From a virus, in the UHGV virus genome UHGV-0072281: a stretch of DNA of 64,000 nt; one strand, 5' to 3'. Each line of letters begins with the position of its first letter. The first letter of the stretch is position 1. The notes under the pieces were generated by a model. It saw only the letters and a program-made list of their open reading frames with translations. It was not told the DNA's origin and ran no database searches. Made by a program: the position numbers and the translations under genes. Of this stretch, positions 1-13,319 are shown one piece after another.

Positions 1-44
1 TTAAGAAATACGTAGCTACGGTTAATTAATTTAAGGAGTCTGTC

Positions 45-455
45 ATGAAAACGTTTATCAAAACTTTACTCGTTGCTGTAACTGTTCTGTTCTCTCTTAA
101 CGTAGCAGCAAAAACAGTAAAACTACCGGCGGGTATCAAATACGTCAACAGTACCGATGAATTCTACTGCACAGAAATTGACGGTCTGTATTGCCAGACA
201 AAGAATTTGTTTGAATACAAAGGTAACAGATATGTTTTCGTTGTTGAGCAAGGCGGTGCCTGGTGCTACGACAGCCCTATGTCGGTACTCAACCTGGAAA
301 CTGGGAAAGCACAGAAAATTGAATACAAAGACAACCAATTGTGTTCAGGCGAAAACAAACCGTTCTTCAAAATCAAAAATGGTGTCCCGACTGTAGGTAT
401 TATCGACACTTCTGGAGCACCAATCGTTGTAGCTCAGGACAAACTTAAAATCTAA
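45..455 (+). CDS. small secreted protein (N-terminal signal peptide, 4 Cys), function unknown
   Basis: ORF with AAGGAG RBS upstream; N-terminus MKTFIKTLLVAVTVLFSLNVAA is signal-peptide-like. Confidence 0.5.
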   Translation: MKTFIKTLLVAVTVLFSLNVAAKTVKLPAGIKYVNSTDEFYCTEIDGLYCQTKNLFEYKGNRYVFVVEQGGAWCYDSPMSVLNLETGKAQKIEYKDNQLCSGENKPFFKIKNGVPTVGIIDTSGAPIVVAQDKLKI

Positions 456-465
456 GGAGTAAACC

Positions 466-855
466 ATGCGTCTTATCTGCGCTTTGTTGGCGTTTTTCTC
501 AATCGGAGTTATGGCTTCTACACACATCGACGATTTATTACTTACCCCGGCAACGAACACAGACTATCACTACAACCCACCGGGTTTTGAAGTCTGCGAA
601 GGCGATGCAGGCGAATGCCAAGAAGTTGGCGCAGATGGACGCTATATACTCGTAAAAGCAGACGGAGGAACAACCTGCCCTGCGGGTTATTATTTCGTAC
701 TTGACTCTGTAGCAAAAGAGGTACTTCCTGTAACGACCAAAACGTGTGACCCCACGGTTGTATTAACCCTTGCGAAAAGCAAATCACGTGACCGTCATCT
801 TATCGTCATCGAAGAACGCGGTGAGATGTTAGGCGCTATCGAATTAGATTACTGA
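466..855 (+). CDS. small secreted protein, function unknown
   Basis: RBS TAAGGAG; hydrophobic N-terminus MRLICALLAFFSIGVMAS; terminator hairpin follows. Confidence 0.5.
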   Translation: MRLICALLAFFSIGVMASTHIDDLLLTPATNTDYHYNPPGFEVCEGDAGECQEVGADGRYILVKADGGTTCPAGYYFVLDSVAKEVLPVTTKTCDPTVVLTLAKSKSRDRHLIVIEERGEMLGAIELDY

Positions 856-866
856 TGTGTAGTCTT

Positions 867-905
867 GACCCCGGTTCGTGCCGATTCGTCCGGGGTCCTT
901 TTTAC
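867..905 (+). terminator. rho-independent terminator (gaccccgg...ccggggtc + T-run)
   Basis: inverted repeat followed by CTTTTTA, read from sequence. Confidence 0.5.
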
Positions 906-933
906 GACTTGTTTTACCTAAAGGAGAATTAAA

Positions 934-1410
934 ATGCGTTTGTCTAATGTTTATCAAGCAGCCCAATTCCATCATGAACTGACGGCTAAGCCTGAGTATA
1001 TTCGCCACAACTTAACGGTGGCTTGGAAACTGTTATTGATTGCTGATGCTGCACGACACAACGACCAGGAAACCATTATCAAAACCGTGCGTACTTTACG
1101 CCCTATTGACCTGGAAACAATTTGGTCGTTTGACTTAACTCGAATTTATCATCGTCGCTTTAATGCGGCGGTGGATGCGATACGTCCTTATTTCCACTAT
1201 TTGCAAGCAACATCAGACTGTGGTCCATCCTTAGAGTGGGTCTTGGTACAAAGCGTATGGAGCGATTACATTTATCTCCTATCTTTAGAGACGGGTGAAT
1301 GCATTATCGCTAACGAGGTATTCTCAACCAACGCCGAAATGTATCGTTCCCACGCTACTATCCAGGGTGTCTCACAGCCTATCTTATCACTCACGCACTT
1401 AGGGCTGTGA
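934..1410 (+). CDS. hypothetical protein
   Basis: 158-aa ORF with RBS AAAGGAG; followed by terminator. Confidence 0.5.
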   Translation: MRLSNVYQAAQFHHELTAKPEYIRHNLTVAWKLLLIADAARHNDQETIIKTVRTLRPIDLETIWSFDLTRIYHRRFNAAVDAIRPYFHYLQATSDCGPSLEWVLVQSVWSDYIYLLSLETGECIIANEVFSTNAEMYRSHATIQGVSQPILSLTHLGL

Positions 1411-1418
1411 TTAGCCCG

Positions 1419-1446
1419 GCCCCGCTGTGTACGGGGCTTCTTTTTT
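1419..1446 (+). terminator. rho-independent terminator (gccccg-loop-cggggc + TTCTTTTTT)
   Basis: GC stem plus U-tract read directly. Confidence 0.6.
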
Positions 1447-1464
1447 GCCAAAGGAAACTGAAAC

Positions 1465-2073
1465 ATGAACGAAATTACTTTGGTTCGTTTTATCGAAGCG
1501 ATGCGACTAAACGAAGCTAATCCTCACTCTCCGTTATTCATCGATTTAATGGAGGAAGAAGTCGAAGGGTTCTTAGCGTACCCGCGTTTGAAAGCGTATT
1601 TCGAACGTAAAACACCAACCGCTTACGAGAAGTTGATGTACGCGTTAGACAACCGTACTACGCTGAACACCACACCGTTTAAAGCGCTGGAAGCAATAGA
1701 CCCTACCGGGGGTGCAGGTATCCCACAACGTGTTGTGTTCTACTACATCGACAACGGCCGTATTAAAGCCGACGTTGTAAACTGGATCTCCGAAGGGGAA
1801 ATCCCAGAAACGCGTACTTTTAACCTCTGTCCGGTAGAAGAAGGTTGGGTCGCAGGAACGCATTATTCCTATCCGTATCAAAGCATCAAATCACCTTATC
1901 TGTATCCGGTGTATTTAGATGACGTTACGCCAGGAAAATGTATTCCCGTTACCAATCTGATTTGCTTACTGACGATGGAAGTTGTTGCGTCAGACGCAGG
2001 CCAGGCTTGGGTTGAGCAATCGAAAAATATCCAAAACTGGCAGCAGATGGGTTACAAACTCTACCAGCCGTAA
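1465..2073 (+). CDS. hypothetical protein
   Basis: 202-aa ORF; no recognisable motifs (no Mre11 phosphoesterase motifs). Confidence 0.5.
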   Translation: MNEITLVRFIEAMRLNEANPHSPLFIDLMEEEVEGFLAYPRLKAYFERKTPTAYEKLMYALDNRTTLNTTPFKALEAIDPTGGAGIPQRVVFYYIDNGRIKADVVNWISEGEIPETRTFNLCPVEEGWVAGTHYSYPYQSIKSPYLYPVYLDDVTPGKCIPVTNLICLLTMEVVASDAGQAWVEQSKNIQNWQQMGYKLYQP

Positions 2074-2079
2074 TACCAC

Positions 2080-2121
2080 GAGAGAACCTTCGGGTTCTCT
2101 CCCTTCTCTTTTATTTTTTTT
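2080..2121 (+). terminator. rho-independent terminator (gagagaacc ttcg ggttctctc + long T-run)
   Basis: perfect 9-bp stem, tetraloop, poly-T. Confidence 0.65.
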
Positions 2122-2146
2122 TCTTTTTACACCACGCTCCGTGAAT

Positions 2147-4663
2147 ATGGAGGTGGACATGTTAAAAGTTGAACGTATTGTACTTAAAGGATTTACCGGA
2201 ATGGGGTTACACGAAATCGAAACCTTCGATTTTACTATCCATTCCCCGACCACCATTATCCTCGGTGGTAACGGCTGCGGTAAGACCAGTTTACTGTCCG
2301 TGTTTCTACCTATCGCACCTTCGAAATCCGAATTCCGTGACGGGGGTTCTTACACCAACATCTGTTTGGTTAACGACCATCGTTACAAGTTTAAGGTTGC
2401 GCGTAAAGGCAACTCACTGGTTTGCGATATCGAGAACCTGACGACGGGTACCAAAATCGTCGAACAAGGTAATGCGAAAGTGTATAACTCTCGTGTAGAA
2501 GAAATCACGGGTATTACAAAAGAGATTAAAGAGTTACTGAACGGAGAAGTGCTTTTAACGGATGCAGGAACGGAACTGCGTCGTAAGTGGTTCTACCGTT
2601 TAAGTACGTCAGACTTAACTTACGCGTTAGGTTTTTATCAACGTTTACGAAAAAACCTGACGATGTTAAACGGCGGTGTTGAAATCACCAGCCGCAAGAT
2701 TGCAGAGTTGCGCACTCGCGTGATTGATAACGAGGAAGAACGTCAGCAGTTAGCAACACGGTTAAAAGCATTAGAAGTAGATTTACGTGAACTCAACAAA
2801 CAGATTGAACAACTGCCGGGTCTGAATCGTGACGTTACGGCGGCAACGATTCAATCGCTATTGCTTAAAATCGAAGCACCGATTAATGCTATCTTGGAAC
2901 ACCGTGGCGGATTACCTACGGAAGAACAGGTAGAGGAAGCACGACGCGTTGAAGCCACTGCCCGTGAAGCGGTGGTCTCTGCTGAAACAGAACTGTCCAT
3001 GCTAAACAAAGATTTGTCTTTGTTGATGGACGAGTCTACCCGCCAAGATTACCTGATGCGGAATCACGAGGGGTTAAAGAACACGGTTGCAAAACTGCGT
3101 GAGTTATTAAAGCAGTGGGACACCGAACATCTTTTCCCTGAACTGTTTGCGGAGACCGTTAATATCGACCAGCTTAAAGCAGCGACAGATGCGCGTGTCT
3201 GGGGACAACGTTTAGGAACAACGCTGGATGCTATTAAATCAACGGAACGGTTGAACGTACTGGAAGAGAAACTGTTGACCTTAGACCAAAACTCATCTGG
3301 GTTGCGTGACCGACTACAACGCGTTGAAAACGTATTGCAGAACCTCAACCACGAACGGAATCACTATTTGGAAACCGCCGAGGTTGATTGTCCGCAGTGT
3401 CAATTTAAATTCCGTCCGGGTGTGCGTCGTTCTTTGCCTGAATTGGAAGAAGCCATTCGTGGACAAATGGAGCAACGTAATACGTTACAGACTCAGCTTG
3501 ATTCCGTATTGCGAGACCGTACGGAATTAGAGTCGGACGTTAACTACATGCGTCAAGTACGAGAAATCGTTTTAACGTACTCGAAAGACCCGGTATTGAG
3601 TTTGTTCTTTAAACGTCTCCAGGAGCGGAATGTCTTTACGGATAACCGCAGTCAATTCGGCAGTCTGTGCGCGGAGTTTGATCATGAACTTTATTCCGCA
3701 ATTGAATACCACGAAACGAAACACCGTTTTGCTAAAGCGGAAAAAGAGTGGGCAAACGCAGTTGCAGCGGTAGGTAACGTTGATGGCGCTCTACAGCAGA
3801 AAATTGCCTTCCAGCAGGAGCGTTTGGGTAAGGCGACAGAAACGCTCTCAGAGCGCCGTAGAGAGCACGCAGTTGCTAATGATACCTTTTGTTATCTAAA
3901 CGAACTTAAAGCCACTGTAGACAATTTTAATGCGGTTTTTGAGCGTTTAGAGAACGATGTTAAGGTAACATTAACCAACACAGTGGTCGAAACGTTATTA
4001 AACGCCCGAGAAAACAAGTTGGATGCGTTCACCACAGCACGGGAACGGTACCGTCAGATGGAAAACGAACTCAACCAACTTACTGCGTTAGAAAAGGAGT
4101 TATCGGATTTACAAGCGCAGCAATTCAATAACAAACTGATGATTCAAGCGTTCTCGCCCGAGAAAGGGGTATTACGCAAATACTTCTACAACGCTATCGT
4201 GAGAATCACAGAATTAATGACGCGGTATATCGAACAAGTCTGGACCTACCCTATGCGGGTCATGCCGTGTGACTTAACCGACGGTGACTTAGACTACACG
4301 TTCCCAGTGCAGTTAAAAACCCATCCTGAACCGGTACCTGACGTGCGGAAAGGGTCGAAAGCGCAGCGGGCCATCTTTAATTTGATGTTTCGTTTAACCG
4401 CTTACAAAGCCCTGAAACTTCATCAGTATCCGCTACTGTTGGATGAACCGTCAGAAGGGATGGATGAGGAACACCGAAATAACCTCGTCGGGTTTATTAA
4501 AACCCTGGCGAATTCCGGTGAGTTCTCTCAGTTACTGGTGGTATCTCACGAAGCAGAAATTCATTCAAAACTTAACGAAGCCGCATACTGTGTTATTGAA
4601 CCTGAAGGTATAACACTGCCTGCGGTATACAACGAGGGAGTAAAAATTGTCTACGCAAACTGA
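2147..4663 (+). CDS. Rad50/SbcC-like SMC-family recombination ATPase (T4 gp46-like)
   Basis: Walker A GGNGCGKTSLL near N-terminus; long coiled-coil-like middle with CPQC zinc-hook motif (~3389-3400); C-terminal Walker B/D-loop LLLDEPSEGMD. ORF track start 1982 rejected: it overlaps the upstream terminator; in-frame ATG at 2147 or 2159 preferred. Confidence 0.75.
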   Translation: MEVDMLKVERIVLKGFTGMGLHEIETFDFTIHSPTTIILGGNGCGKTSLLSVFLPIAPSKSEFRDGGSYTNICLVNDHRYKFKVARKGNSLVCDIENLTTGTKIVEQGNAKVYNSRVEEITGITKEIKELLNGEVLLTDAGTELRRKWFYRLSTSDLTYALGFYQRLRKNLTMLNGGVEITSRKIAELRTRVIDNEEERQQLATRLKALEVDLRELNKQIEQLPGLNRDVTAATIQSLLLKIEAPINAILEHRGGLPTEEQVEEARRVEATAREAVVSAETELSMLNKDLSLLMDESTRQDYLMRNHEGLKNTVAKLRELLKQWDTEHLFPELFAETVNIDQLKAATDARVWGQRLGTTLDAIKSTERLNVLEEKLLTLDQNSSGLRDRLQRVENVLQNLNHERNHYLETAEVDCPQCQFKFRPGVRRSLPELEEAIRGQMEQRNTLQTQLDSVLRDRTELESDVNYMRQVREIVLTYSKDPVLSLFFKRLQERNVFTDNRSQFGSLCAEFDHELYSAIEYHETKHRFAKAEKEWANAVAAVGNVDGALQQKIAFQQERLGKATETLSERRREHAVANDTFCYLNELKATVDNFNAVFERLENDVKVTLTNTVVETLLNARENKLDAFTTARERYRQMENELNQLTALEKELSDLQAQQFNNKLMIQAFSPEKGVLRKYFYNAIVRITELMTRYIEQVWTYPMRVMPCDLTDGDLDYTFPVQLKTHPEPVPDVRKGSKAQRAIFNLMFRLTAYKALKLHQYPLLLDEPSEGMDEEHRNNLVGFIKTLANSGEFSQLLVVSHEAEIHSKLNEAAYCVIEPEGITLPAVYNEGVKIVYAN

Positions 4664-4847
4664 TTGGTGGCGTCAGTTACTAAGCGTTTTAGGCTTTAGC
4701 GTCATGGTGCTGGTTGCCATTCTGTACGTGCTATTTTGTATAACGGCGATTTTATGGGTGGTCTTAGCGTACGCGATTAGGCTCACCTGGGGTTCAATTT
4801 GGCACCAACGCGAATGTGAGTGGCGGTGTGTTGGAGGGAAGTCATGA
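4647..4847 (+). CDS. small membrane protein (66 aa, TTG start)
   Basis: hydrophobic core VLGFSVMVLVAILYVLFCITAILWVVLAYAI; GAGGGAG RBS; overlaps end of upstream gene. Confidence 0.35.
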   Translation: MSTQTDWWRQLLSVLGFSVMVLVAILYVLFCITAILWVVLAYAIRLTWGSIWHQRECEWRCVGGKS

Positions 4848-4954
4848 TTGAGGGTATTCTGTTAACACTTGGGTCGTTGTGGATTATTGGGAAATCCCTC
4901 AACTGGCTGATTAAAAAGCACGGATGGGCTTTCAAAGGCTCTACGTACAGTTAA
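4844..4954 (+). CDS. tiny membrane peptide (36 aa)
   Basis: hand-translated MIEGILLTLGSLWIIGKSLNWLIKKHGWAFKGSTYS; GGAGGG RBS 5 nt upstream; not in ORF track (too short). Confidence 0.25.
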   Translation: MIEGILLTLGSLWIIGKSLNWLIKKHGWAFKGSTYS

Positions 4955-4960
4955 GTTAGA

Positions 4961-4993
4961 ACCCCCTCCTGGGTAACTGGGAGGGTGTTTTAC
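4961..4993 (+). terminator. hairpin terminator (ccctcc...ggaggg + TTTTAC)
   Basis: inverted repeat read from sequence. Confidence 0.4.
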
Positions 4994-5005
4994 GAGGGAA
5001 GAACT

Positions 5006-5134
5006 ATGACTGTTGTCAATACTACCAATGCTGCAATCGGCGCTTTATATAACGCGGAACTAACATGGGGTGCGGGTTTTATTACCGTACTGCTTCTCGC
5101 CGCAGCCGCTTTTATCATTGGACGTTGGTTTTAA
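5006..5134 (+). CDS. tiny membrane peptide (42 aa)
   Basis: hand-translated MTVVNTTNAAIGALYNAELTWGAGFITVLLLAAAAFIIGRWF; GAGGGAA RBS. Confidence 0.25.
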   Translation: MTVVNTTNAAIGALYNAELTWGAGFITVLLLAAAAFIIGRWF

Positions 5135-5166
5135 TTTCATCTTTTTGCGTCTGTAAGGTCTGATAA

Positions 5167-5610
5167 ATGGAAATTTATTTGTTGAACGCACATTCTAAAA
5201 TCGGTGAGCAGCAAGCGAAAGATTTACTCGCACTCCATTACCGTTACTTAGATCACCAAGCAACGATGCTGAAAATCAAAACCGCTGTACCGAAATTAAA
5301 CGTGCGTCAACTGATCGAAGGCAACTGTGTTGTTCTGATTTATATCGACGATGTTGCGGTGGGTTATTGCAGTTACCGTAATCGCAACGGGGTACTCAAA
5401 ATTCGTTCGTTATACGTGCTGCCCGATTACCGTCAGCGTGGGGTAATGAAAGAAATCTTCAAAGCGATAGCCACTGATGAAACATTCGGTGAAATTGCAA
5501 TTGGGATGTACACGAAGTGCAAAGAAGCGAAAGAGTATTTCATTCGTCGTGGCTACAAAGCAACCTATTCTCACGATAAAGAATGGGTGGAATTCAGTAA
5601 AACTTTCTAA
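5167..5610 (+). CDS. GNAT-family N-acetyltransferase (putative)
   Basis: motif-A-like YVLPDYRQRGVMKEIF after a beta-strand-like VGYCSY segment; size 147 aa typical for GNAT. Confidence 0.5.
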   Translation: MEIYLLNAHSKIGEQQAKDLLALHYRYLDHQATMLKIKTAVPKLNVRQLIEGNCVVLIYIDDVAVGYCSYRNRNGVLKIRSLYVLPDYRQRGVMKEIFKAIATDETFGEIAIGMYTKCKEAKEYFIRRGYKATYSHDKEWVEFSKTF

Positions 5611-5676
5611 AACAATAAAGGCTCTCTTGACGTTCCTCACTATGAGTGTGAGAATTTTACGTCAGGAGAGCTACTT

Positions 5677-5913
5677 ATGTTAAACAGTTTCGGTGTAGGT
5701 GGAATGGATACAAGCATTTGCTGGAAAGAATACGAACGTGCAAATGCATTTCTCCAGCATCCCAACGTGGGTAAGATCGGTCAGGTGTGTTTTGGTAAAC
5801 CTGCACTGACAGCCTGTATTCAAGGTGCGTTAGGAACGCTGCCACCTGAATCACCTTTCGAGCCTAAGGAGAATCCAGATGTTACCAGGAACCCAAACCC
5901 CGTATCTATTTAG
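5677..5913 (+). CDS. hypothetical small protein
   Basis: 78-aa ORF; overlaps next ORF. Confidence 0.3.
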   Translation: MLNSFGVGGMDTSICWKEYERANAFLQHPNVGKIGQVCFGKPALTACIQGALGTLPPESPFEPKENPDVTRNPNPVSI

Positions 5914-6253
5914 TGAACCACTGGATAACAGCGACATCTTACAAATCTGTTATCAGTGTCACGAAATCGGTGGTAGTGAACTTACGCGGGTTAATAAACT
6001 GCTGTGGCTGATTCCAGAAATCGAATTACCGTTCGTTAAACCGAGTTTGTGGCGTCGTGGTGCGTGTCGCGAAGCGTATATGCTGTCAAAGTTTAACATT
6101 AATCTGGAGAAGGTCTGGGAGAAGATGAACGACGGCCAAACCAGAGAACAGATTACTCACACGCTGGAATTGCACCTTGCCATGAAACGCCTCGGTCTCG
6201 AACACGAAGGACTGGAGTCCGTTATCAGTCAATGGGTGAAAAGGAATCGTTAA
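5879..6253 (+). CDS. hypothetical protein
   Basis: 124-aa ORF, start uncertain. Confidence 0.4.
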   Translation: MLPGTQTPYLFSEPLDNSDILQICYQCHEIGGSELTRVNKLLWLIPEIELPFVKPSLWRRGACREAYMLSKFNINLEKVWEKMNDGQTREQITHTLELHLAMKRLGLEHEGLESVISQWVKRNR

Positions 6254-6326
6254 TGTCTAAAACGTATATAGCGATTTTGGTTGAGTTGGCGATTGGTGGA
6301 ACGCGGTTTATCCCTGTGCATCAATT

Positions 6327-6851
6327 ATGCTTACCTCACTCGGTAAGACCGTTATGCTAACGATACTTCCAGAATCGGTTATTGACAACGACCTGTTTAA
6401 CGCCCCTGAGCGCTTCAAGGTCGTTACGATAAATTGTGTAGGGGCAATGGGTCGGGGTATCGCTTTAGCGTGCAGAGAACGCTATCCTGGGCTTTATCAG
6501 GACTACCGAGAACGTTGCTTCGCTAACGAGATACGAATAGGGAATGTGTACGTTTATCCCGAGGAAAACTGCATTCTCTTACCAACTAAAACACATTGGA
6601 AACTGAAATCCCAGGTTTCTTATGTTATCGCGGGTATCACCGCGTTGGCAGATGCCGCAGAAAACTTAGAGGGTGGGGTGGCTTTACCGCCGTTAGGGAT
6701 GGCCAACGGTTGGTTGACAAAAGCTGAATGTCAACAAATCTTTTTGTTTATCGAAAAGAAACTCGTACCGAGGAGACAACAATACTGTTTCTATTTACCT
6801 GATCCGCTTTACCAAGAAGCAAAACCTTTAATTCCAAACCTTTTTAAATAG
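6327..6851 (+). CDS. macrodomain protein, TARG1/DarG-like (ADP-ribose-processing hydrolase)
   Basis: NDLFNAP...INCVGAMGRGIALA...LLPTKTHWKLK...LPPLGMANGW matches, from memory, the TARG1/DarG pattern GDLF..P...MGAGIA...ITKK..HK...MPRIGCGLD; alternative in-frame start at 6354. Confidence 0.6.
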   Translation: MLTSLGKTVMLTILPESVIDNDLFNAPERFKVVTINCVGAMGRGIALACRERYPGLYQDYRERCFANEIRIGNVYVYPEENCILLPTKTHWKLKSQVSYVIAGITALADAAENLEGGVALPPLGMANGWLTKAECQQIFLFIEKKLVPRRQQYCFYLPDPLYQEAKPLIPNLFK

Positions 6852-6858
6852 ATATTAT
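6849..6858 (+). promoter_or_regulatory. recurring motif TAGATATTAT (copy 1), candidate phage promoter element
   Basis: same 10-mer at 16321-16330 and near-identical CAGATATTAT at 25421-25430, each just upstream of a gene start. Confidence 0.2.
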
Positions 6859-6951
6859 CATTAGGGCACACAACAAAGGAGTACCAGCTGTCCGCGCCGT
6901 GATTTCGTTCTACGGAATACGGAAATGTATAAATCCAACTGGAGAACTAGT

Positions 6952-7638
6952 ATGTTTCGTATCTTCTTTCTTTTACTGGTAACACTTTTCGCGTTTAACG
7001 CATACGCATCCAAATCCGCGCCCAGTACCAAACACCATCGTGAATTCGAAATGATTCAAGACCGTTTCGAACGGGTAAAACCGTTGATTGTGGAAATCTC
7101 TCGAAAGCAGGGTGTTGATCCTAATTTGATGACCACGCTAATCTATCGAGAGTCACGGTTTAATCCGAAAGCGTATAATCGAACGTCTAAAGCGCACAGT
7201 CTGGTTCAGATGCTGCCGAGCACAAAGCGTAATTTGCTAAAACTCTACGGTGCCGAAATCGGACTTAGCCGCAATGCAGATTTGTACAATCCTCGTAATG
7301 CGGTGCTATTGGCTTCCGTCTACGTTAAACATTTAGAAAAGGGGTTAACTAAACGACTCAAACGCAAGCCCACTATTGCAGAAATAGCATTGGCTTATCA
7401 CTGGGGTGAAAGCGGTGCACACGCCAGGATTAAAAGCAAGTCTCGGGCAGCACAACGAGAAATGGCGAGCTTTATGAAAGATGCAACGTTCTACAGTGCA
7501 AAAATCAACAAGCCTGTAGCATCTCGTCAGCTTGCGTTTGCGAAGAAACCAGAACGCCAGATTCAGTTAGCAGAAGTTAACCGAATTTGGGATACGATAA
7601 ACACCAGTTTTCCATTTAAACAAGGAGTCACCCTTTGA
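6952..7638 (+). CDS. secreted soluble lytic transglycosylase (SLT-domain, endolysin-like)
   Basis: signal-peptide-like MFRIFFLLLVTLFAFNAYAS; SLT-like motifs ESRFNPKA...SKAHSLVQMLPST; start moved to 6952 (GGAG RBS) instead of 6925. Confidence 0.55.
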   Translation: MFRIFFLLLVTLFAFNAYASKSAPSTKHHREFEMIQDRFERVKPLIVEISRKQGVDPNLMTTLIYRESRFNPKAYNRTSKAHSLVQMLPSTKRNLLKLYGAEIGLSRNADLYNPRNAVLLASVYVKHLEKGLTKRLKRKPTIAEIALAYHWGESGAHARIKSKSRAAQREMASFMKDATFYSAKINKPVASRQLAFAKKPERQIQLAEVNRIWDTINTSFPFKQGVTL

Positions 7639-8144
7639 GCATCGTTGTAACCGATTGGTATAAAGGTATCACTAAGGCTACCCAAATTACTGCCCAGGAC
7701 GTGTACAGTATCGTTCGTAGCAGTAGCGAAGACCAGATAAAGTCCGACGAAGACTTTGCAACGCGTCATGAGTTTTACGATGCCCTTAAAACGGCTTTCG
7801 GTGATGACGAAGAAGAAGGCTTAGAGTTTGACTGGAACGTCAACCTTGCCTTGTTGTGGATTTGCGGATTACGTCCGAGTGTGAAAGACACGGAGCAAGG
7901 GAAAGTTCTGTTGTGGCACTACACCGGTAAATACAATCCGAACCAGGTCTTTAAAGAAGCGTATATGGAAGCCACTGTAGAGTTACAGAATCTGCTGTTG
8001 GGTGAGAACACCTACTGTCAACGCAGCTTCCTGACGATTCTGGAGAAACTGGCGTCTACACACAAAATCTGGCGTCAGGCAGATGCCCCTGAACACATCT
8101 TCGTTCTGGAATTTGCTGTGATTCCAAACCAGCCGTTCTTTTAA
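7635..8144 (+). CDS. hypothetical protein
   Basis: 169-aa ORF overlapping upstream stop by 4 nt (coupled). Confidence 0.5.
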   Translation: MSIVVTDWYKGITKATQITAQDVYSIVRSSSEDQIKSDEDFATRHEFYDALKTAFGDDEEEGLEFDWNVNLALLWICGLRPSVKDTEQGKVLLWHYTGKYNPNQVFKEAYMEATVELQNLLLGENTYCQRSFLTILEKLASTHKIWRQADAPEHIFVLEFAVIPNQPFF

Positions 8145-8150
8145 TACTTG

Positions 8151-8188
8151 CCCCTAATCCGATTGGATTAGGGGTACTTTTATTTATT
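8151..8188 (+). terminator. rho-independent terminator (cccctaatcc gatt ggattagggg + T-rich)
   Basis: perfect 10-bp stem. Confidence 0.6.
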
Positions 8189-8207
8189 CCCCTAAAGGAG
8201 AAAAGGT

Positions 8208-8687
8208 ATGTTGAAGTTTATCTGGCGTTACCCAACCCGATTTTGGTTCGTGGTATTAGAGGTAATCACCGTTCTACTGTTAGTGACATTCGTAAACGCC
8301 CCTACGAAACAAATGGTGATTTTCTGTGTATTCGTCGCTATACCGTTGTGGGTATTTGCAAAGATTATTAAGTTTTACATGATAAGCTGGGCGAACTACA
8401 CCTGTCCATTTAAACCCAGAGAAATCATGAACTGGTTGATGTATATCGAAGACCGTTTACCCGCTCAGTCTAAAACGTTAGGCTGGCAATCGATGTTGGA
8501 TATTGCGCTAGAAACAAACGCAAAATTCCCTGGGTCAAAGAATCCTTATTTGCTGCTGGCTGTTATTGTTGCCCAGCAGAAACGTGCAGGCGAACGTTGG
8601 TTACCGAAAGAAGCGAAAGAGTATATTCGTAAACATCCGAAGGCTTTCTATTCCGTAGGTCAATGGCGTAACCTCCCACTCTTTTAA
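8208..8687 (+). CDS. membrane protein with two N-terminal TM helices (holin-like topology, unproven)
   Basis: hydrophobic segments FWFVVLEVITVLLLVTFV and MVIFCVFVAIPLWVFAKII. Confidence 0.45.
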   Translation: MLKFIWRYPTRFWFVVLEVITVLLLVTFVNAPTKQMVIFCVFVAIPLWVFAKIIKFYMISWANYTCPFKPREIMNWLMYIEDRLPAQSKTLGWQSMLDIALETNAKFPGSKNPYLLLAVIVAQQKRAGERWLPKEAKEYIRKHPKAFYSVGQWRNLPLF

Positions 8688-8740
8688 CTTTTTTACAAAA
8701 CCCTTAGTTGATTTGAATAAACCTAAAGAGGACTATTAAA

Positions 8741-9676
8741 ATGACTTTTCCATCTGAAGTAATTTACGAACTGGCTAACACACTACGTCGTCACTATAGC
8801 GCCAAGATGATGCAAACCCATGTGGGTGCGACCGCTGACTTTTTGCGCGGCCATTTCCTGGGCAATAACCCGCCATCTATTACACAGGAAACGGTTTTCT
8901 CTATCGATCGTGCCTCCTTAATTCTTCCAATCGACCACGCCATTGCGGTTCAAGAAGGGAATACGTTCAACTTCTCTATGGGAATGCGACGTTCGTCTAT
9001 CGCCGTTAACTCAAACATGGGAAATAACCAGTCTTTCGTACAGAACACGCACTCTGCAGAACACGGTAACTGGTTCGTTGTTGTAGAACAAGGCGTGAAT
9101 CAGTATGACGTTGTTGCAGCTCGCGATGAATCTTTCTTTGAGCTGGGACAGATTTCTCGCCGTCGTGAAATTGCGCTTGACCTACGTCAAGGTAATATCG
9201 GATTAAGTGGGACCAGTGTCTATTTCATCCTGAGCAGTTGGGCACATGTAAGTTATGTGCTGAAAAATGCCAGTCCGACGTTCCACGCAACGACGGTAGA
9301 ATTTCGTGGCCTTGAGATAGAATATCGTGACGAAGAAGAAACGGTACCTGGCACAGAGGTCGCCATTTGTGAAAACTACGATGATCTGAAATCTGTGCTT
9401 GTTAAGCGTGATGTTTTCGAATCGTTAAACTTGGATTTCCCCGGCGATGAAAATGAAATATCCGTAGCTGACCTGGTAGAAACATTGTGTCAGAAAGACC
9501 AAGCTAACGAAATTAGCGACGAAGAAGCAGAACTCTTCCAAGTTCAACAACTCATCAGCAAGGTTATCGGCGGTCAGGAAATTGTTGACACCCTTATGGC
9601 TTTACCACCGAAGAAACGTACTCAAAAGTACATTCGTGAACTGGTTCTTGAAAACCTGGGTCAAGCCAAAAAGTAA
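8741..9676 (+). CDS. hypothetical protein, paralog family A (long member)
   Basis: N-terminus MTFPSEVIYELANTLRRH and C-terminal SGTSVYFILSSWAHV resemble the next gene. Confidence 0.55.
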   Translation: MTFPSEVIYELANTLRRHYSAKMMQTHVGATADFLRGHFLGNNPPSITQETVFSIDRASLILPIDHAIAVQEGNTFNFSMGMRRSSIAVNSNMGNNQSFVQNTHSAEHGNWFVVVEQGVNQYDVVAARDESFFELGQISRRREIALDLRQGNIGLSGTSVYFILSSWAHVSYVLKNASPTFHATTVEFRGLEIEYRDEEETVPGTEVAICENYDDLKSVLVKRDVFESLNLDFPGDENEISVADLVETLCQKDQANEISDEEAELFQVQQLISKVIGGQEIVDTLMALPPKKRTQKYIRELVLENLGQAKK

Positions 9677-9684
9677 TTTAAATC

Positions 9685-9718
9685 CCCTACTCCCGGAGGA
9701 GTAGGGTTAATTCTTTTT
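9685..9718 (+). terminator. terminator hairpin ccctactcc-cgga-ggagtaggg + T-run
   Basis: same stem recurs at 10298 and 29620. Confidence 0.6.
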
Positions 9719-9737
9719 CCATCTTAGGAGTATTAAA

Positions 9738-10286
9738 ATGTTTCCATCATCTGAATATTTAACCCACCTGGCTTACGGTATTCGTCGAGGTTCTGTTTTC
9801 CGTACACGTTTAAAGGACGTAAATTTCCTGGCTAATTTCTTATTTAACCATTTGGGAGATGGAACTAACGTTTACAAAAAGATCACCACAACACAACTTT
9901 ATTCCCTTATAGCGGCGTCTGAAATTGTACCTACAGATATTTGGCGATTCAAGCGTTATAACGGAGATATTACGATCAGTTTTCTTGATCATTCTCCTAT
10001 TACCGTTGAAATCGTCGAACGCGTTGATATTAATAGTGAAGTGTCTGGTTGGAAGATTCTGTTTGATTGTGGCAATCGTTATGCGGTACTTGGCTCCTCT
10101 GATGAACGTGACTTCCCATTCGACAAACCCTACTACTACCTCAGCGAAGATGATTTCCCGGATAAAGAATCCAATATCTTTTTAAACGGGGATACCGTTT
10201 ACTTCATTTTTCGTACTTGGAACGATGTTGCTGCTATGATTGCTCAAGGTGTCATCGATTACCGTAAACTAGAAGTCGACATTTAA
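9738..10286 (+). CDS. hypothetical protein, paralog family A (short member)
   Basis: MFPSSEYLTHLAYGIRRG... and GDTVYFIFRTWNDV parallel the upstream gene. Confidence 0.55.
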   Translation: MFPSSEYLTHLAYGIRRGSVFRTRLKDVNFLANFLFNHLGDGTNVYKKITTTQLYSLIAASEIVPTDIWRFKRYNGDITISFLDHSPITVEIVERVDINSEVSGWKILFDCGNRYAVLGSSDERDFPFDKPYYYLSEDDFPDKESNIFLNGDTVYFIFRTWNDVAAMIAQGVIDYRKLEVDI

Positions 10287-10297
10287 AATAAAAGCTA

Positions 10298-10332
10298 CCC
10301 TACTCCTTTTCGGGAGTAGGGTAATTTCTTTT
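10298..10332. terminator. bidirectional terminator between convergent genes (ccctactcc ttttcg ggagtaggg)
   Basis: hairpin flanked by T-rich on both strands; lies between + gene end 10286 and - gene end 10331. Confidence 0.6.
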
Positions 10333-10954
10333 AGTTAACTAACCCGTTAGCTTTAAGAATCTCTAACATCTGGTTGTTTAACTCTTTTAATTTTTTGTTT
10401 TCGTTTGTCAACGAAATAACTTGTTCCGACAACGGAATAGCCTCTCGAATTTTCTTTTTCCGAGCCGCTTCCATTTGTAGGTGTTGCTCCTCCGTCACCT
10501 TCCCTTCATACTCCATGGTCGTGATTTCGACTTTCGGGTCGATACCCAACGTACGGGTGAGAATATCCGAAACGTCTTTAGTCATCACCGACACATCTAC
10601 ATAATCCGGTACAAACGATAAGTCCACCACCATCACATTACGCTGGTACGCGATTCCCGATAAACCGGGACACGATTCTACGTAAGTGTCGGGGATATAA
10701 ACGACTTGACCATCGCGTGATTTAAACGTAAGTATTGACGCGTTAACAGTGGCATCAGCAAGATATTCTTCTCGCTCCAACCCAACGGGCTTGTAATACT
10801 CGTTGTAAACATCAATATTCTGACGTACTAAATCTGGGAAGGTACGTGATGCCTCCACCGTGAAGATAACCGTTTCGGCTAACGTAAACGGTGTTTTTAC
10901 CTTAAATAAACCCGTTGTATTAACGGGAACCAAAAGAGGTAAACGCGTAGCCAT
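10331..10954 (-). CDS. hypothetical protein
   Basis: 207-aa minus-strand ORF immediately downstream of the 458-aa minus gene. Confidence 0.5.
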   Translation of the reverse strand: MATRLPLLVPVNTTGLFKVKTPFTLAETVIFTVEASRTFPDLVRQNIDVYNEYYKPVGLEREEYLADATVNASILTFKSRDGQVVYIPDTYVESCPGLSGIAYQRNVMVVDLSFVPDYVDVSVMTKDVSDILTRTLGIDPKVEITTMEYEGKVTEEQHLQMEAARKKKIREAIPLSEQVISLTNENKKLKELNNQMLEILKANGLVN

Positions 10955-10957
10955 TCA

Positions 10958-12331
10958 TTACTCCTCGTCGATTTCAGTATACCATTTCGCTTTACGAGAC
11001 AGTATGCGATATTCGACGTTATCGTATTCAAACACCCAGAAGTAGTTATCTGGATCGGCTTCATCAACGAGTTTCACGACGTCCAGACTGGTCTGATACG
11101 GATGGTATTCTTCCGCTGCTATTAACGCCTGGAAGAACAACGCTAACCACTCTGTGGTGGATTTCGACATTCGTGCAATGTCTGGGTTTGTTGTTGCAAT
11201 CAGTGCGTAGTCTGGTAACGTTTCGTGTAAGGTATTCTTACGAGTGTCGTTTTCAGGACCACTGATAACCACCATGTTCAGTGATTTATACACAGTAGGT
11301 AAATCGGTAACATCCGTTGTCGGTTTGCTTACCGTATTACTATTTCTTTCTGCAACAGACTGATCAGACCATTCCCCAAACTTTGTAATGGCTTTGACCC
11401 AGAAATCATATGGAAGGATGGGGGAATAGAGAGCCGCCACGTCTTCCTCATTCGGTATACCACGGATTTTCCACCCCGGAACCATTGTGAATTTCGTAGT
11501 GGTAAAGATCTCAGGGAATACCTTCACCCCAATCGGAACCGTAAAGCTGGAGTTTGCAAGAATATGTTCACGCAACGCTTGCTTTATTTTCGTTGGGTTT
11601 TTTCCTGCACGTCCGTAAATGATAACCGACATTGGAACAACCAGTGTTGACTCGTAGTTTTCTTGGTCATGCCAGGTGTAGTAGTTAGTTTGGATGGCAG
11701 TATACGGGAACCCTGCCATTAACTCGTTGATTTTCTTATGGTGTTCGGTAAGGTTAAACCCTTCCATCGCTTTTTCAACGACTGACTTTGTGGCCAAGAA
11801 TGTGTCGATTGGCTCAATCGGCATCTGTACTTCGATTTCAAAACCCGTGTAGTCCTGGTCGAAGTCTTCATCCGAGAACCAAACTATGATTTGGTTATCT
11901 ACATCAGTGTCATCTTGTACTTGATCTGCTGTTGCTTCATATTTCCAGCTCACCCAACGTGGGAACCAGTTACTGTTCGTCTGGATCATCGCACCGGACT
12001 GAACACCGGAAATGGTTGTTTGGAATTGGCCTAATAATAGGCGCTGGAATTCAAGTTCGTCATTTCTCAGATTCCCCAAGATGGCTTGCTGGTAAATCCA
12101 TTGAGAAACGGTTAGAATATGATCAGAAAACTCGGCTGGAACAACAACCGTCTGTTTTTCTCGTTTAGACGTAAATGTCACCAACTGCACTTGCAGATTG
12201 GATTTAGTAAACGTCTGTTTACTCTTCGCGTACGAGAGGGTCAGATCAGACAGCTCACCTACCGGAGCGGTGACGCCGTCCTGATTGTCAAACAGAGCCG
12301 GTATCTGAATAAAACCTTGTAAGTCTAACAT
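10958..12331 (-). CDS. hypothetical protein (possible virion/structural)
   Basis: start placed at internal Met (MLDLQGF, codon at 12329-12331) with GGAG RBS; track start 12391 would overlap the divergent gene. Confidence 0.5.
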   Translation of the reverse strand: MLDLQGFIQIPALFDNQDGVTAPVGELSDLTLSYAKSKQTFTKSNLQVQLVTFTSKREKQTVVVPAEFSDHILTVSQWIYQQAILGNLRNDELEFQRLLLGQFQTTISGVQSGAMIQTNSNWFPRWVSWKYEATADQVQDDTDVDNQIIVWFSDEDFDQDYTGFEIEVQMPIEPIDTFLATKSVVEKAMEGFNLTEHHKKINELMAGFPYTAIQTNYYTWHDQENYESTLVVPMSVIIYGRAGKNPTKIKQALREHILANSSFTVPIGVKVFPEIFTTTKFTMVPGWKIRGIPNEEDVAALYSPILPYDFWVKAITKFGEWSDQSVAERNSNTVSKPTTDVTDLPTVYKSLNMVVISGPENDTRKNTLHETLPDYALIATTNPDIARMSKSTTEWLALFFQALIAAEEYHPYQTSLDVVKLVDEADPDNYFWVFEYDNVEYRILSRKAKWYTEIDEE

Positions 12332-12356
12332 AATTAAAAATACTCCGAGGTGAGCA

Positions 12357-12860
12357 ATGGGTTCATTTCTTAAAGTGCTTCCGTTCTTCATTCAGATGTT
12401 GATGGAAGCATTTAAACCAGGAGAAGGAGAAAACGTATCAAGAGCAAACAAGATAATGACTTTAATCATCACGGTCTTGTTATCCTACTCGGCTTTCGTC
12501 TCCTATGCGTACGTAGTGCAGTTTCACAAGCTCGTTACAGTACAATCGCATGATCAATACATGTCGCAATCTTACCAAGAGATGAAGCAAGATCGTGACA
12601 AACTGAAAGATGATAATGGTAGATTATACGACAAGCTCTTTATTTGCCTCGGCCAGAAACCGCCATATGAAAGCGGGTACAGCTCGGTAAAAGAAGACGT
12701 CTCTGCCAAAGATTTAACACCTAAGAAACCAGAAACTCCTGTTAGCCCAGCTTCAACACCAGAACAACGCAAAGAAGCTTCGGCACGACCTGTTGGTAGT
12801 CAAGACGCTAACAGTTTCCGTCAGGAGATCATAAAGACGTTATCGTCACCTAAGGAGTAA
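12357..12860 (+). CDS. membrane protein with one TM helix, coiled-coil and Pro-rich tail (i-spanin-like architecture, speculative)
   Basis: TM IMTLIITVLLSYSAFVSYAYVV, then charged helical segment, then PKKPETPVSPASTPEQ. Confidence 0.4.
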   Translation: MGSFLKVLPFFIQMLMEAFKPGEGENVSRANKIMTLIITVLLSYSAFVSYAYVVQFHKLVTVQSHDQYMSQSYQEMKQDRDKLKDDNGRLYDKLFICLGQKPPYESGYSSVKEDVSAKDLTPKKPETPVSPASTPEQRKEASARPVGSQDANSFRQEIIKTLSSPKE

Positions 12861-12863
12861 CTG

Positions 12864-13319
12864 ATGAAATCGCTGTTATTCATCATGATTTTGTGCGTGG
12901 GTTTGGTGAGTAATAGCTATGGAGAACCCGGTAAACGGTCATCCTATACTGCGTTACAGCCTCCGCCAGCGCCACCTATCATGTTAAATTGGAAAATTGA
13001 TAAAGACGCGATGCGGGAATATGTTGCGGATGTGAATACATACGCTTATTACGTTTATCTCTACACACGAAACTTAAATCAGCAAGCAGTCAAACGCGGG
13101 TGGAATCCACCGATGTTAGCACCTATCTGCGAACGGTTTGAAATTCCTAAATTACATTCCGTTCCAGAAAAGATGCTATTAGACGAGAAAGCGTTAACGC
13201 CACAAGAAATCAGTCGGGATTTATCACGTAAACTGAATTCGTTGTTGTGGAATTATCGCTCTGACCGGCAAGCTTTATTAGACGCCTACGATCAGTATCT
13301 GACAACGTGTTTGAACTGA
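12864..13319 (+). CDS. secreted/periplasmic protein
   Basis: signal-peptide-like MKSLLFIMILCVGLVSNSYG; no canonical lipobox. Confidence 0.45.
   Translation: MKSLLFIMILCVGLVSNSYGEPGKRSSYTALQPPPAPPIMLNWKIDKDAMREYVADVNTYAYYVYLYTRNLNQQAVKRGWNPPMLAPICERFEIPKLHSVPEKMLLDEKALTPQEISRDLSRKLNSLLWNYRSDRQALLDAYDQYLTTCLN

What the first reader, a model, noticed from the sequence alone, without database searches (positions are those of the whole stretch)
6327..6851. Phage-encoded TARG1/DarG-type macrodomain: candidate eraser of ADP-ribosylation (possible anti-DarT or anti-ART counter-defence)
The 174-aa protein matches the TARG1/DarG macrodomain pattern, including the MG(R/A)GIA phosphate-binding loop and a lysine-containing TK..K segment at the position of the TARG1 catalytic lysine. 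Macrodomains of this class remove ADP-ribose from proteins or from thymidine in DNA. In a lytic phage this is a plausible counter to host ADP-ribosyltransferase defences such as DarT. It sits in a cluster with a GNAT acetyltransferase and three tiny membrane peptides.
Basis: partly seen in the sequence, partly recalled or inferred. Interest (0 to 1): 0.7.

Follow-up and report, generated by a model that had tools for sequence, protein, structure and literature searches.

The report
Jumbo-phage AdfM anti-DarT macrodomain
This gene encodes a small stand-alone enzyme of the DarG type, which most likely strips ADP-ribose off phage DNA to defeat the bacterial DarTG2 defence; the same family (AdfM) was described experimentally in related nucleus-forming jumbo phages in 2025-2026, so this is a new member of a known kind.

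Summary
The ORF is real. Its start is probably ATG 6354 (165 aa), not 6327. It is a confident macrodomain (AlphaFold2 mean pLDDT 94.5). Its closest solved relatives, by sequence and by fold, are the DarG macrodomains of Thermus aquaticus and M. tuberculosis, ahead of TARG1. The DarG catalytic Asn and Lys (N27 and K79 here) are invariant across 25 homologues. The protein lacks DarG's C-terminal DarT-binding domain, and no DarT-like protein was found among the 40 other window ORFs scanned against Pfam, so it is an orphan antitoxin-like enzyme.

The window comes from an undescribed phiKZ-like (chimallivirus) jumbo phage, with split RNA polymerase beta subunits, an S80 prohead protease, and gene order matching Seoulvirus, Machinavirus and Erskinevirus. 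The protein is 62% identical over its full length, in the same genomic position, to Erwinia phage Asesino gp217. It is 34% identical to PhiKZ gp104. Both are AdfM ("anti-DarT factor macro", Morgan et al., Cell Rep 2026). PhiKZ AdfM was shown to remove DarT2 ADP-ribose from thymidine in ssDNA, to enter the phage nucleus and to protect against DarTG2.

The idea is already published, so novelty is low: a new member of a known kind.

The parts
6354..6851 (+). AdfM-like stand-alone DarG2-type macrodomain CDS (165 aa, stop included); the longest ORF begins at 6327 (174 aa)
   Evidence: ORF. Homologues are 153-166 aa (21 of 24 are 161-166 aa) and all start at this Met. DarG hits. AF2 mean pLDDT 94.5. 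Foldseek top hits are DarG macrodomains. 62% identical to Asesino gp217 AdfM.
6432..6434 (+). Codon of Asn27, equivalent to TaqDarG N22 and PhiKZ AdfM N23 (active-site Asn)
   Evidence: Invariant in 25 homologues and in the alignment with DarG, PhiKZ and Asesino. N22A and N23A reduce activity (PMC5179494; PMC13309987).
6441..6464 (+). GAMGRGIA loop (residues 30-37), the phosphate/ADP-ribose-binding loop of the macrodomain
   Evidence: G30, A31, M32, G33, G35 and A37 are invariant. The loop aligns with GVMGKG(V/I)A of DarG.
6582..6599 (+). P-T-K-T-H-W segment (residues 77-82); Lys79 (6588..6590) is equivalent to catalytic K80 of TaqDarG and K78 of PhiKZ AdfM; Trp82 is equivalent to DarG W83
   Evidence: T78 and K79 are invariant. 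Alignments. K80A inactivates TaqDarG (PMC5179494).
6687..6713 (+). PPLGMANGW loop (residues 112-120), equivalent to the DarG G117-G121 loop that closes on ADP-ribose
   Evidence: P112, P113, L114, G115, N118, G119 and W120 are invariant. Aligned with PPLGAGNGG of DarG. Loop role from PMC5179494.
6253..6360 (+). Upstream 35-aa ORF whose TAA stop overlaps the ATG at 6354 (ATGCTAA); context only, function unknown
   Evidence: Sequence read directly. Small ORFs abut or overlap the macro gene in EC001 and Caitlin as well.
5167..5610 (+). GNAT acetyltransferase, a conserved neighbour in the same gene block; not shown to be functionally linked
   Evidence: Pfam PF00583 5.5e-08. GNAT at the same relative position in Asesino, EC001 and Caitlin.
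6925..7638 (+). SLT-domain lytic transglycosylase (endolysin), the conserved downstream neighbour; context only
   Evidence: Pfam PF01464 3.3e-14. Annotated as endolysin or transglycosylase downstream of the macro gene in EC001, Caitlin and Asesino.

Best explanation
The gene encodes an AdfM-family protein: an orphan, stand-alone copy of the macrodomain of the bacterial antitoxin DarG2, carried by a phiKZ-like (chimallivirus) jumbo phage.

Proposed mechanism (inferred from homologues): when a host DarTG2 system is triggered, DarT2 ADP-ribosylates thymidines in TNTC motifs of single-stranded phage DNA and blocks replication and packaging. The phage enzyme binds the ADP-ribose in its macrodomain pocket (GAMGRGIA and PPLGMANGW loops, Asn27) and uses Lys79 to cleave the thymidine-ribose bond, restoring clean DNA.

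By analogy with PhiKZ, PhiPA3 and Asesino AdfM, it is probably imported into the phage nucleus, where the DNA is.

- Shown here: fold, family, conservation of catalytic residues, orphan status, orthology and synteny with a named AdfM.
- Inferred, not shown here: enzyme activity, substrate, localisation and protection phenotype.
For: - Sequence: the best solved relatives are the DarG macrodomains 5m3i and 5m31 (E 1.7e-20 and 4.3e-18) and the DarTG complex 7omu (9.4e-11). Poa1p-type phosphatases reach only E about 0.05. PADLOC DarG 2.1e-31 and NCBIfam antitoxin_DarG 7.2e-31 agree.
- Fold: the AF2 model has pLDDT 94.5 and pTM 0.90. Foldseek against PDB ranks TaqDarG (E 5.5e-13, TM 0.78/0.84), MtbDarG and Thermosipho DarTG first, then TARG1.
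- Catalytic residues: N27, T78, K79 and both binding loops are invariant in 25 homologues. They align with TaqDarG N22 and K80 and with PhiKZ N23 and K78. Their roles are documented in PMC5179494 and PMC13309987.
- Orthology: 62% identity over the full length with Asesino gp217, which the AdfM paper names and shows to be nuclear. The gene order SMC - small ORFs - GNAT - macro - SLT endolysin - virion protein is the same.
- Relation to PhiKZ: gp104 AdfM matches only this ORF in the window (E 8e-24).
- Phage type: split RNAP beta subunits and Peptidase_S80 mark a phiKZ-like phage.
- Experimental basis in the family: PhiKZ AdfM de-ADP-ribosylates DarT2-modified oligonucleotide, rescues DarT2 toxicity, and its deletion costs 3-6 logs of titre on DarTG2 hosts (PMC13309987).
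Against: - No experiment exists on this protein.
- Identity to the only biochemically characterised AdfM (PhiKZ gp104) is just 34%.
- For the 62% orthologue (Asesino gp217), only localisation was shown.
- The host of this phage is unknown, as is whether that host carries DarTG2.
- The chimallin gene is not in the window, so nucleus formation is inferred from relatives.
- The position equivalent to DarG G119 is Ala here. It is also Ala in PhiKZ AdfM, so this is probably harmless.
- The Pfam Macro score is slightly below the gathering cut-off.
- Macrodomains of this class can also act on protein or nucleic-acid-end ADP-ribose (TARG1), so substrate range cannot be fixed from sequence.
Confidence: 0.85

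Rival explanations
1. It is a housekeeping-type ADP-ribose-1''-phosphate phosphatase or O-acetyl-ADP-ribose deacetylase (MacroD/Poa1p type). This is what legacy annotations imply ('Appr-1-p processing protein', 'phosphatase'). It would clear small-molecule NAD or tRNA-splicing by-products and would not act on DNA.
For: PHROG_335 is labelled 'phosphatase'. Many phage records annotate homologues as Appr-1-p processing or ADP-ribose 1''-phosphate phosphatase. Weak phmmer hits to yeast Poa1p (E 0.05-0.14).
Against: Similarity to DarG is 15-19 orders of magnitude stronger than to Poa1p. Foldseek ranks all DarG entries first. The DarG/TARG1-type catalytic Lys in PTK is invariant. The family member PhiKZ gp104 acts on DNA-linked ADP-ribose and gives a DarTG2-specific phenotype. 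The 'phosphatase' labels are transfers from the old A1pp domain name, not tests.
Confidence: 0.04
2. It is a broader or different eraser. It would remove ADP-ribose from proteins (TARG1-like, Glu/Asp-linked) or from RNA (for example CmdT-type mRNA ADP-ribosylation). It would do so to counter other host ADP-ribosyltransferase defences, or to reverse modifications made by a phage ART, either instead of or in addition to DarT2 marks.
For: TARG1 is the next-best structural class (E 5e-07, TM about 0.7-0.8) and shares the catalytic Lys. Other ADP-ribosylating defences exist and phage erasers against them are anticipated in the literature (PMC11825919 discussion).
Against: Only 17% identity to TARG1 against 30-32% to DarG. 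No ART, DarT or NADAR domain was found in 40 other ORFs of this window, so there is no sign of a phage-encoded partner here, although 64 kb is only about a quarter of such a genome. The PhiKZ AdfM deletion phenotype tracked DarTG2 only, among 12 clinical strains.
Confidence: 0.08
3. It is the antitoxin half of a phage-borne DarTG toxin-antitoxin module, used for example for superinfection exclusion or addiction.
For: Strong match to the DarG models of PADLOC and NCBIfam.
Against: The match covers only profile positions 7-151 of 338, and the score (107.7 bits) is far below the 250-bit equivalog cut-off. The protein ends at 165 aa, so it has no DarT-binding domain. Flanking ORFs have no Pfam DarT (DUF4433) or other ART hit. 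The same orphan arrangement is conserved in related phages.
Confidence: 0.02

Closest known systems
AdfM (anti-DarT factor macro) of chimalliviruses: PhiKZ gp104, PhiPA3 gp108, Goslar gp83, Asesino gp217 (Morgan et al., Cell Rep 2026, PMC13309987)
   Same: Stand-alone protein of about 160-166 aa, of DarG2 macrodomain type, encoded by a phiKZ-like jumbo phage. The catalytic Asn and Lys are conserved. 62% identical to and syntenic with Asesino gp217. 34% identical to PhiKZ gp104.
   Different: It comes from an undescribed phage: there is no megablast match in 50,697 phage records, and the best phage homologues are 60-63% identical. Activity, nuclear import and protection are untested for this protein. 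Its genomic neighbourhood differs from that of PhiKZ-like and Moabitevirus AdfMs.
DarG2 antitoxin of the DarTG2 toxin-antitoxin system (T. aquaticus, M. tuberculosis; PDB 5M31, 5M3E, 5M3I; Jankevicius et al. 2016, PMC5179494)
   Same: Closest solved sequence and fold. N22, K80, W83 and the ADP-ribose loops are conserved. The DarG macrodomain alone is sufficient as an antitoxin.
   Different: No C-terminal DarT-binding domain and no adjacent darT gene. It is phage-encoded. G119 is replaced by Ala.
T4 Tk.4, also named AdfM (HIDEN-SEQ preprint, bioRxiv 10.1101/2025.11.20.689424)
   Same: A phage-encoded stand-alone macrodomain needed for plating on DarTG2 E. coli. The counter-defence logic is the same.
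   Different: Barely similar in sequence (BLASTP E 0.001 over 45 residues). In the MAFFT alignment it lacks the PTK lysine at the aligned position. It is probably a separate macrodomain lineage in a phage that does not form a nucleus.
AdfN (T4 30.3 and other phage NADAR proteins; Johannesman et al. 2025, PMC11825919)
   Same: An orphan antitoxin-like ADP-ribosylglycohydrolase that cleans phage DNA.
   Different: It has an unrelated fold (NADAR) and is specific for guanosine-linked ADP-ribose made by DarT1. It does not counter DarTG2.
AdfA (RB69/T4 gp61.2) and AdfB (ICP1 Gp145)
   Same: Phage anti-DarT factors.
   Different: They act by binding DarT, not by enzymatic reversal, and have no macrodomain.
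Human TARG1 (C6orf130; PDB 4J5Q/4J5S)
   Same: Same macrodomain subclass, with an equivalent catalytic lysine.
   Different: 17% identity. It is known mainly as a protein (Glu-linked) de-ADP-ribosylase. It ranks below all DarG entries.

Membership tests
AdfM (chimallivirus anti-DarT factor macro) | Significant sequence homology and orthology to named AdfMs (PhiKZ gp104, Asesino gp217) | tested here: met
   BLASTP gives 62% identity over 164 aa, E 2e-75, against Asesino gp217, and 34%, E 2e-27, against PhiKZ gp104. gp104 hits only this ORF in the window. The gene order matches Asesino.
AdfM (chimallivirus anti-DarT factor macro) | Stand-alone DarG2-like macrodomain fold | tested here: met
   AF2 mean pLDDT 94.5. 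Foldseek top hits are 5m3e, 5m31 and 5m3i, with TM 0.75-0.84. Length is 165 aa.
AdfM (chimallivirus anti-DarT factor macro) | Active-site Asn and Lys (PhiKZ N23 and K78; TaqDarG N22 and K80) | tested here: met
   N27 and K79 are invariant in 25 homologues and aligned with the DarG and PhiKZ residues.
AdfM (chimallivirus anti-DarT factor macro) | Encoded by a nucleus-forming (Chimalliviridae) phage | tested here: inconclusive
   The window has split multisubunit RNAP beta genes and a phiKZ-type S80 protease, and is syntenic with Asesino, a demonstrated nucleus former. The chimallin gene itself lies outside the window, at the position of Asesino gp039.
AdfM (chimallivirus anti-DarT factor macro) | Removes DarT2-made ADP-ribose from thymidine in ssDNA and neutralises DarT2 toxicity | not testable with these tools
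   Shown only for PhiKZ gp104 (PMC13309987).
AdfM (chimallivirus anti-DarT factor macro) | Imported into the phage nucleus (PicA pathway) | not testable with these tools
   Shown for the PhiKZ, PhiPA3 and Asesino proteins. No import signal is defined that could be searched for.
DarG antitoxin (DarTG2 toxin-antitoxin system) | N-terminal macrodomain with catalytic lysine | tested here: met
DarG antitoxin (DarTG2 toxin-antitoxin system) | C-terminal DarT-binding domain (full-length protein of about 330-370 aa) | tested here: not met
   The protein is 165 aa. The NCBIfam DarG match covers profile positions 7-151 of 338 at 107.7 bits, against a 250-bit cut-off. The PADLOC match covers 6-146 of 329.
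DarG antitoxin (DarTG2 toxin-antitoxin system) | Adjacent darT toxin gene | tested here: not met
   No Pfam hit to DarT (DUF4433) or any ART in flanking ORFs or in 30 further window ORFs.
TARG1-type macrodomain | Fold plus catalytic Lys (K84) and Asp (D125) | tested here: inconclusive
   Fold match with E 5e-07 and 17% identity, ranked below DarG. The Lys equivalent is present. The Asp125 equivalent was not examined.
MacroD/Poa1p-type ADP-ribose-1''-phosphate phosphatase | Closest similarity to that subclass | tested here: not met
   Poa1p E 0.05-0.14 against DarG 1.7e-20. Poa1p ranks 16th or lower in Foldseek.
Pfam Macro domain PF01661 | Score at or above the gathering threshold (22 bits) | tested here: not met
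   20.8 bits, E 3.9e-4, covering profile positions 3-117 of 118. The more specific DarG models and the structure leave no doubt about the fold.

The most novel reading that the evidence does not exclude
In this enterobacterial chimallivirus clade the macrodomain may be more than a DarT2 eraser. It might work with the recurrently neighbouring GNAT acetyltransferase as a two-enzyme anti-defence module. Or it might have a widened substrate range (RNA- or protein-linked ADP-ribose, for example CmdT-type or other ART defences) inside the phage nucleus. GNAT-macro neighbourhoods occur in two chimallivirus clades with GNATs that show no detectable similarity by BLASTP. This could reflect convergence on a functional pairing.
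Probability: 0.07. Interest if true: 0.6.

Novelty: new member of a known kind. Interest (0 to 1): 0.25.

Why it matters
The finding adds an enterobacterial-type, previously unsequenced jumbo phage to the set of chimalliviruses that carry AdfM. It supports the published view that the phage nucleus is backed up by enzymatic counter-defences.

Practically, AdfM status predicts whether such jumbo phages can plate on DarTG2-carrying hosts. DarTG2 systems are documented in E. coli, including EPEC (PMC7003065 abstract; E. coli DarTG2 plasmids used). That is relevant for choosing therapeutic phages.

It also corrects the uninformative 'hypothetical protein' or 'Appr-1-p processing / phosphatase' labels carried by dozens of homologues in public phage records. 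It does not open a new question.

Tried and rejected
- Megablast of 5000..9000 against 50,697 phage records found nothing. The phage was therefore identified only at protein level.
- The sigma-70 promoter and intrinsic-terminator scan of 4500..7700 gave counts at or below the shuffled expectation. Chimallivirus promoters are not covered by that tool, so expression timing stays unknown.
- I tested whether the GNAT next to the macro gene in Serratia phage Yaphecito is an orthologue of the window GNAT. BLASTP found no significant similarity (E 0.02), so a conserved GNAT-macro operon is not established.
- I tested whether PhiKZ-like phages have a GNAT beside AdfM. The flanking PA7 proteins have no Pfam hit.
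- I tested similarity to T4 Tk.4, the other protein named AdfM. It is only marginal (E 0.001), so I do not treat them as one sequence family.
- I looked for a partner ADP-ribosyltransferase, DarT or NADAR among 40 other window ORFs. None was found at E <= 0.001-0.01.
- I rejected the 174-aa start at 6327: all 24 aligned homologues start at the second Met, and the 9 extra residues are matched only in the STsAS tblastn alignment.
- The look-up of the exact protein found it on ENA and other metagenome contigs (107 kb, and 0.2-1 Mb classes), but with no host information.

Full report
**1. The observation**

An open reading frame runs from 6327 to 6851 on the + strand (174 aa; sequence). One is G-A-M-G-R-G-I-A (nt 6441..6464). 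The other is P-T-K-T-H-W-K-L-K, with the Lys79 codon at 6588..6590.

The start is probably not 6327. The 24 aligned homologues from a 5.8-billion-protein search are 153-166 aa long (21 of them 161-166 aa), and all begin at the position of the second Met, ATG 6354. That ATG overlaps the TAA stop of a 35-aa upstream ORF (ATGCTAA). I therefore treat the product as 165 aa, encoded by 6354..6851, and number residues accordingly.

**2. What the protein is**

Sequence evidence:
- The generic Pfam Macro model scores just under its cut-off (20.8 against 22 bits, E 3.9e-4).
- More specific models are unambiguous: PADLOC DarG 2.1e-31, NCBIfam antitoxin_DarG 7.2e-31 and PHROG_335 3.5e-30.
- Against all PDB sequences, the best hits are the DarG macrodomains of M. 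tuberculosis (5m3i, E 1.7e-20) and Thermus aquaticus (5m31/5m3e, 4.3e-18). The Thermosipho DarTG complex (7omu, 9.4e-11) follows.
- Yeast Poa1p, an ADP-ribose-1''-phosphate phosphatase, reaches only E about 0.05.

Fold evidence:
- An AlphaFold2 model built on 25 homologues is very confident (mean pLDDT 94.5, pTM 0.90).
- Foldseek against the PDB ranks TaqDarG (E 5.5e-13, TM 0.78/0.84, 32% identity), MtbDarG and Thermosipho DarTG first.
- An uncharacterised Thermus protein comes next, and human TARG1 follows (E 5e-07, 17% identity).

Within the TARG1/DarG class the protein is specifically DarG-like.

**3. Catalytic residues**

In TaqDarG, K80 is equivalent to the TARG1 catalytic lysine, and K80A inactivates the enzyme. 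N22A has the next-strongest effect. T20, T79, G117, G119, N120 and G121 contact ADP-ribose, and W83 is proposed to stack on the thymine (PMC5179494).

In the window protein the aligned residues are as follows:

| TaqDarG | Window protein |
|---|---|
| T20 | T25 |
| N22 | N27 |
| T79 | T78 |
| K80 | K79 |
| H82 | H81 |
| W83 | W82 |
| G117 | G115 |
| G119 | A117 |
| N120 | N118 |
| G121 | G119 |

N27, T78, K79, G30-A31-M32-G33, G35, A37, P112-P113-L114-G115 and N118-G119-W120 are invariant across 25 homologues that go down to 34% identity. The only departure is Ala at the G119 position, and PhiKZ AdfM shares it.

**4. It is an orphan**

The DarG profile matches cover only positions 7-151 of 338 (NCBIfam) and 6-146 of 329 (PADLOC). 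The NCBIfam score (107.7 bits) is far below the 250-bit equivalog cut-off. DarG's C-terminal DarT-binding domain is therefore absent.

None of the flanking ORFs, and none of 30 further ORFs in the window, hits a DarT, ART or NADAR Pfam family. PhiKZ gp104 finds only this one macrodomain in the six-frame translation of the window.

**5. The genome context**

The window has no nucleotide-level match among 50,697 phage records. At protein level the gene has homologues in 241 records, almost all jumbo phages:
- Seoulvirus (SPN3US-like) phages of Salmonella and Escherichia, 60-63% identity.
- Erwinia Machinavirus, Wellington and others, about 54%.
- PhiKZ-like Pseudomonas phages, 34.5%.

The window carries phiKZ-like hallmarks:
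- Two adjacent split RNA polymerase beta-subunit genes (45368..46993 and 46997..51163).
- A UvsX-like recombinase and a tail sheath gene.
- A Peptidase_S80 prohead protease (53739..54542).

The local order is SMC-like ATPase (Pfam SMC_N), small ORFs, GNAT (5167..5610), small ORFs, macrodomain, SLT transglycosylase (6925..7638), and virion protein genes on the opposite strand. The same order is found in Escherichia phage EC001, Erwinia phage Caitlin and Erwinia phage Asesino.

Asesino is an experimentally demonstrated nucleus-forming chimallivirus (PMC11724907). Its chimallin, gp039, lies outside the region syntenic with this window. Nucleus formation by the present phage is therefore inferred, not seen.

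**6. Comparison with what is known**

The literature search found that this family has been characterised. Morgan et al. (Cell Rep 2026, PMC13309987) named the chimallivirus macrodomain protein AdfM (anti-DarT factor macro). They report that:
- PhiKZ gp104 removes ADP-ribose from a DarT2-modified oligonucleotide, and N23A reduces this activity.
- It fully rescues DarT2 toxicity in E. coli.
- AdfM deletions cost PhiKZ and PhiPA3 3-6 logs of titre on DarTG2-expressing hosts.
- Phage DNA becomes ADP-ribosylated without AdfM.
- AdfM from PhiKZ, PhiPA3 and Asesino localises to the phage nucleus.
- About half of chimalliviruses encode it.

Their Asesino AdfM is gp217. I fetched it (L003:16707-17207) and found 62% identity over 164 of 165 residues with no gaps (E 2e-75), in the same genomic position. 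Identity to PhiKZ gp104 is 34% (E 2e-27).

Independently, a preprint (bioRxiv 10.1101/2025.11.20.689424) gave the same name, AdfM, to T4 Tk.4, a macrodomain needed for plating on DarTG2 E. coli. That protein is only marginally similar to the window protein (E 0.001), and I regard it as a separate lineage.

Other anti-DarT factors differ more. AdfN is a NADAR enzyme specific for DarT1's guanosine marks (PMC11825919). AdfA and AdfB bind DarT and are not enzymes.

**7. Mechanism: what is shown and what is inferred**

Shown here:
- A DarG2-type macrodomain fold.
- A conserved catalytic Asn and Lys, and conserved ADP-ribose loops.
- No DarT-binding domain and no DarT partner found.
- Orthology and synteny with a named AdfM.
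- A phiKZ-like genome.

Inferred from the family:
- The enzyme hydrolyses the thymidine-ADP-ribose bond made by host DarT2 on single-stranded phage DNA.
- It acts inside the phage nucleus after PicA-dependent import.
- It thereby preserves replication and packaging on DarTG2 hosts.

I put this at about 0.85. The main residual alternatives are:
- A broader or different ADP-ribose substrate (0.08).
- A small-molecule 'Appr-1-p phosphatase' role, as legacy annotations say (0.04).
- Membership of a phage-borne TA pair (0.02).

**8. Novelty and verdict**

However, the biology is already published for this exact family, including a 62% orthologue. What is new is only the phage: an undescribed relative of Seoulvirus and Erskinevirus that is also present in metagenome assemblies. 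This is a new member of a known kind, and interest is low to moderate.

One loose thread remains. A GNAT acetyltransferase recurs near the macro gene. It is part of the conserved block in the Seoulvirus, Machinavirus and Erskinevirus clade. Independently, in a different neighbourhood, a GNAT directly overlaps the start of the macro gene in Serratia phage Yaphecito. That GNAT shows no detectable BLASTP similarity to the window's. PhiKZ-like phages lack it. This may be coincidence, because GNATs are common in jumbo phages. It is the only hint of anything beyond the published picture.

Noticed in passing
window 5167..5610; L003:14478-14969; L001:4070-4558; L002:4146-4625; L004:3032-3523: A GNAT acetyltransferase lies near the AdfM-like gene in the Seoulvirus, Machinavirus and Erskinevirus block. 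In Serratia phage Yaphecito, in a different neighbourhood, a GNAT with no detectable BLASTP similarity to the window's directly overlaps the start of the macro gene. PhiKZ-like PA7 has no GNAT there. This could be a functional pairing or a coincidence.
   Followed up: partly
window 6253..6360 and 6327..6354: A 35-aa ORF (MSKTYIAILVELAIGG...) ends in a TAA that overlaps the likely true start ATG 6354 of the macro gene (ATGCTAA), which suggests translational coupling. The longer 174-aa reading from 6327 is what gene callers chose on the metagenome contigs.
   Followed up: partly
window 1..64000: No megablast match to any of 50,697 GenBank phage records, and protein identities of only about 60% to the nearest phages. 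The exact protein is on ENA metagenome contig ERZ27239574 k119_33003 (107 kb) and on contigs in the 0.2-1 Mb class. This is an undescribed jumbo phage, probably with a complete genome in public assemblies.
   Followed up: partly
window 45368..46993, 46997..51163, 53739..54542: Two adjacent genes for split RNA polymerase beta-type subunits and a Peptidase_S80 prohead protease. These are hallmarks of phiKZ-like (chimallivirus) phages.
   Followed up: partly
window 31824..32864: The thymidylate synthase is 346 aa, but it matches the whole 266-position Pfam profile end to end. It therefore carries about 80 extra residues as internal insertion(s).
   Followed up: no
window 4647..4847, 4820..4954, 4985..5134, 4964..4985: Between the SMC-like gene and the GNAT are small ORFs. 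Two have strongly hydrophobic segments (66 aa and 42-49 aa) and a third is weaker. A terminator-like hairpin (9 bp stem, 6 GC pairs) sits at 4964..4985. Similar runs of tiny ORFs occupy the same place in EC001, Caitlin and Asesino.
   Followed up: no
window 1982..4663: The SMC/Rad50-like ATPase ORF is listed from a TTG at 1982 (893 aa). Homologues (2511-nt CDSs) and the metagenome gene call (834 aa) suggest a start inside the listed ORF, close to the in-frame ATG at 2144 that I used as query (839 aa).
   Followed up: no
L004 (Yaphecito), L005 (PA7), L001-L003: AdfM homologues sit in quite different gene neighbourhoods in different chimallivirus clades: next to the endolysin in the SPN3US-like group, next to an RNAP subunit, helicase and GNAT in Moabitevirus, and among hypothetical genes in PhiKZ-like phages. 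The window protein is about as similar to bacterial DarG cores (38-39% in the alignment) as to PhiKZ AdfM (30-34%). Whether this reflects one acquisition or several is open.
   Followed up: no
L007:6923-7390 (T4 tk.4): In a quick MAFFT alignment, T4 Tk.4, also named AdfM in a preprint, has no lysine at the position of the DarG PTK catalytic lysine. It may use a different catalytic arrangement, or the alignment may be unreliable at that divergence.
   Followed up: no
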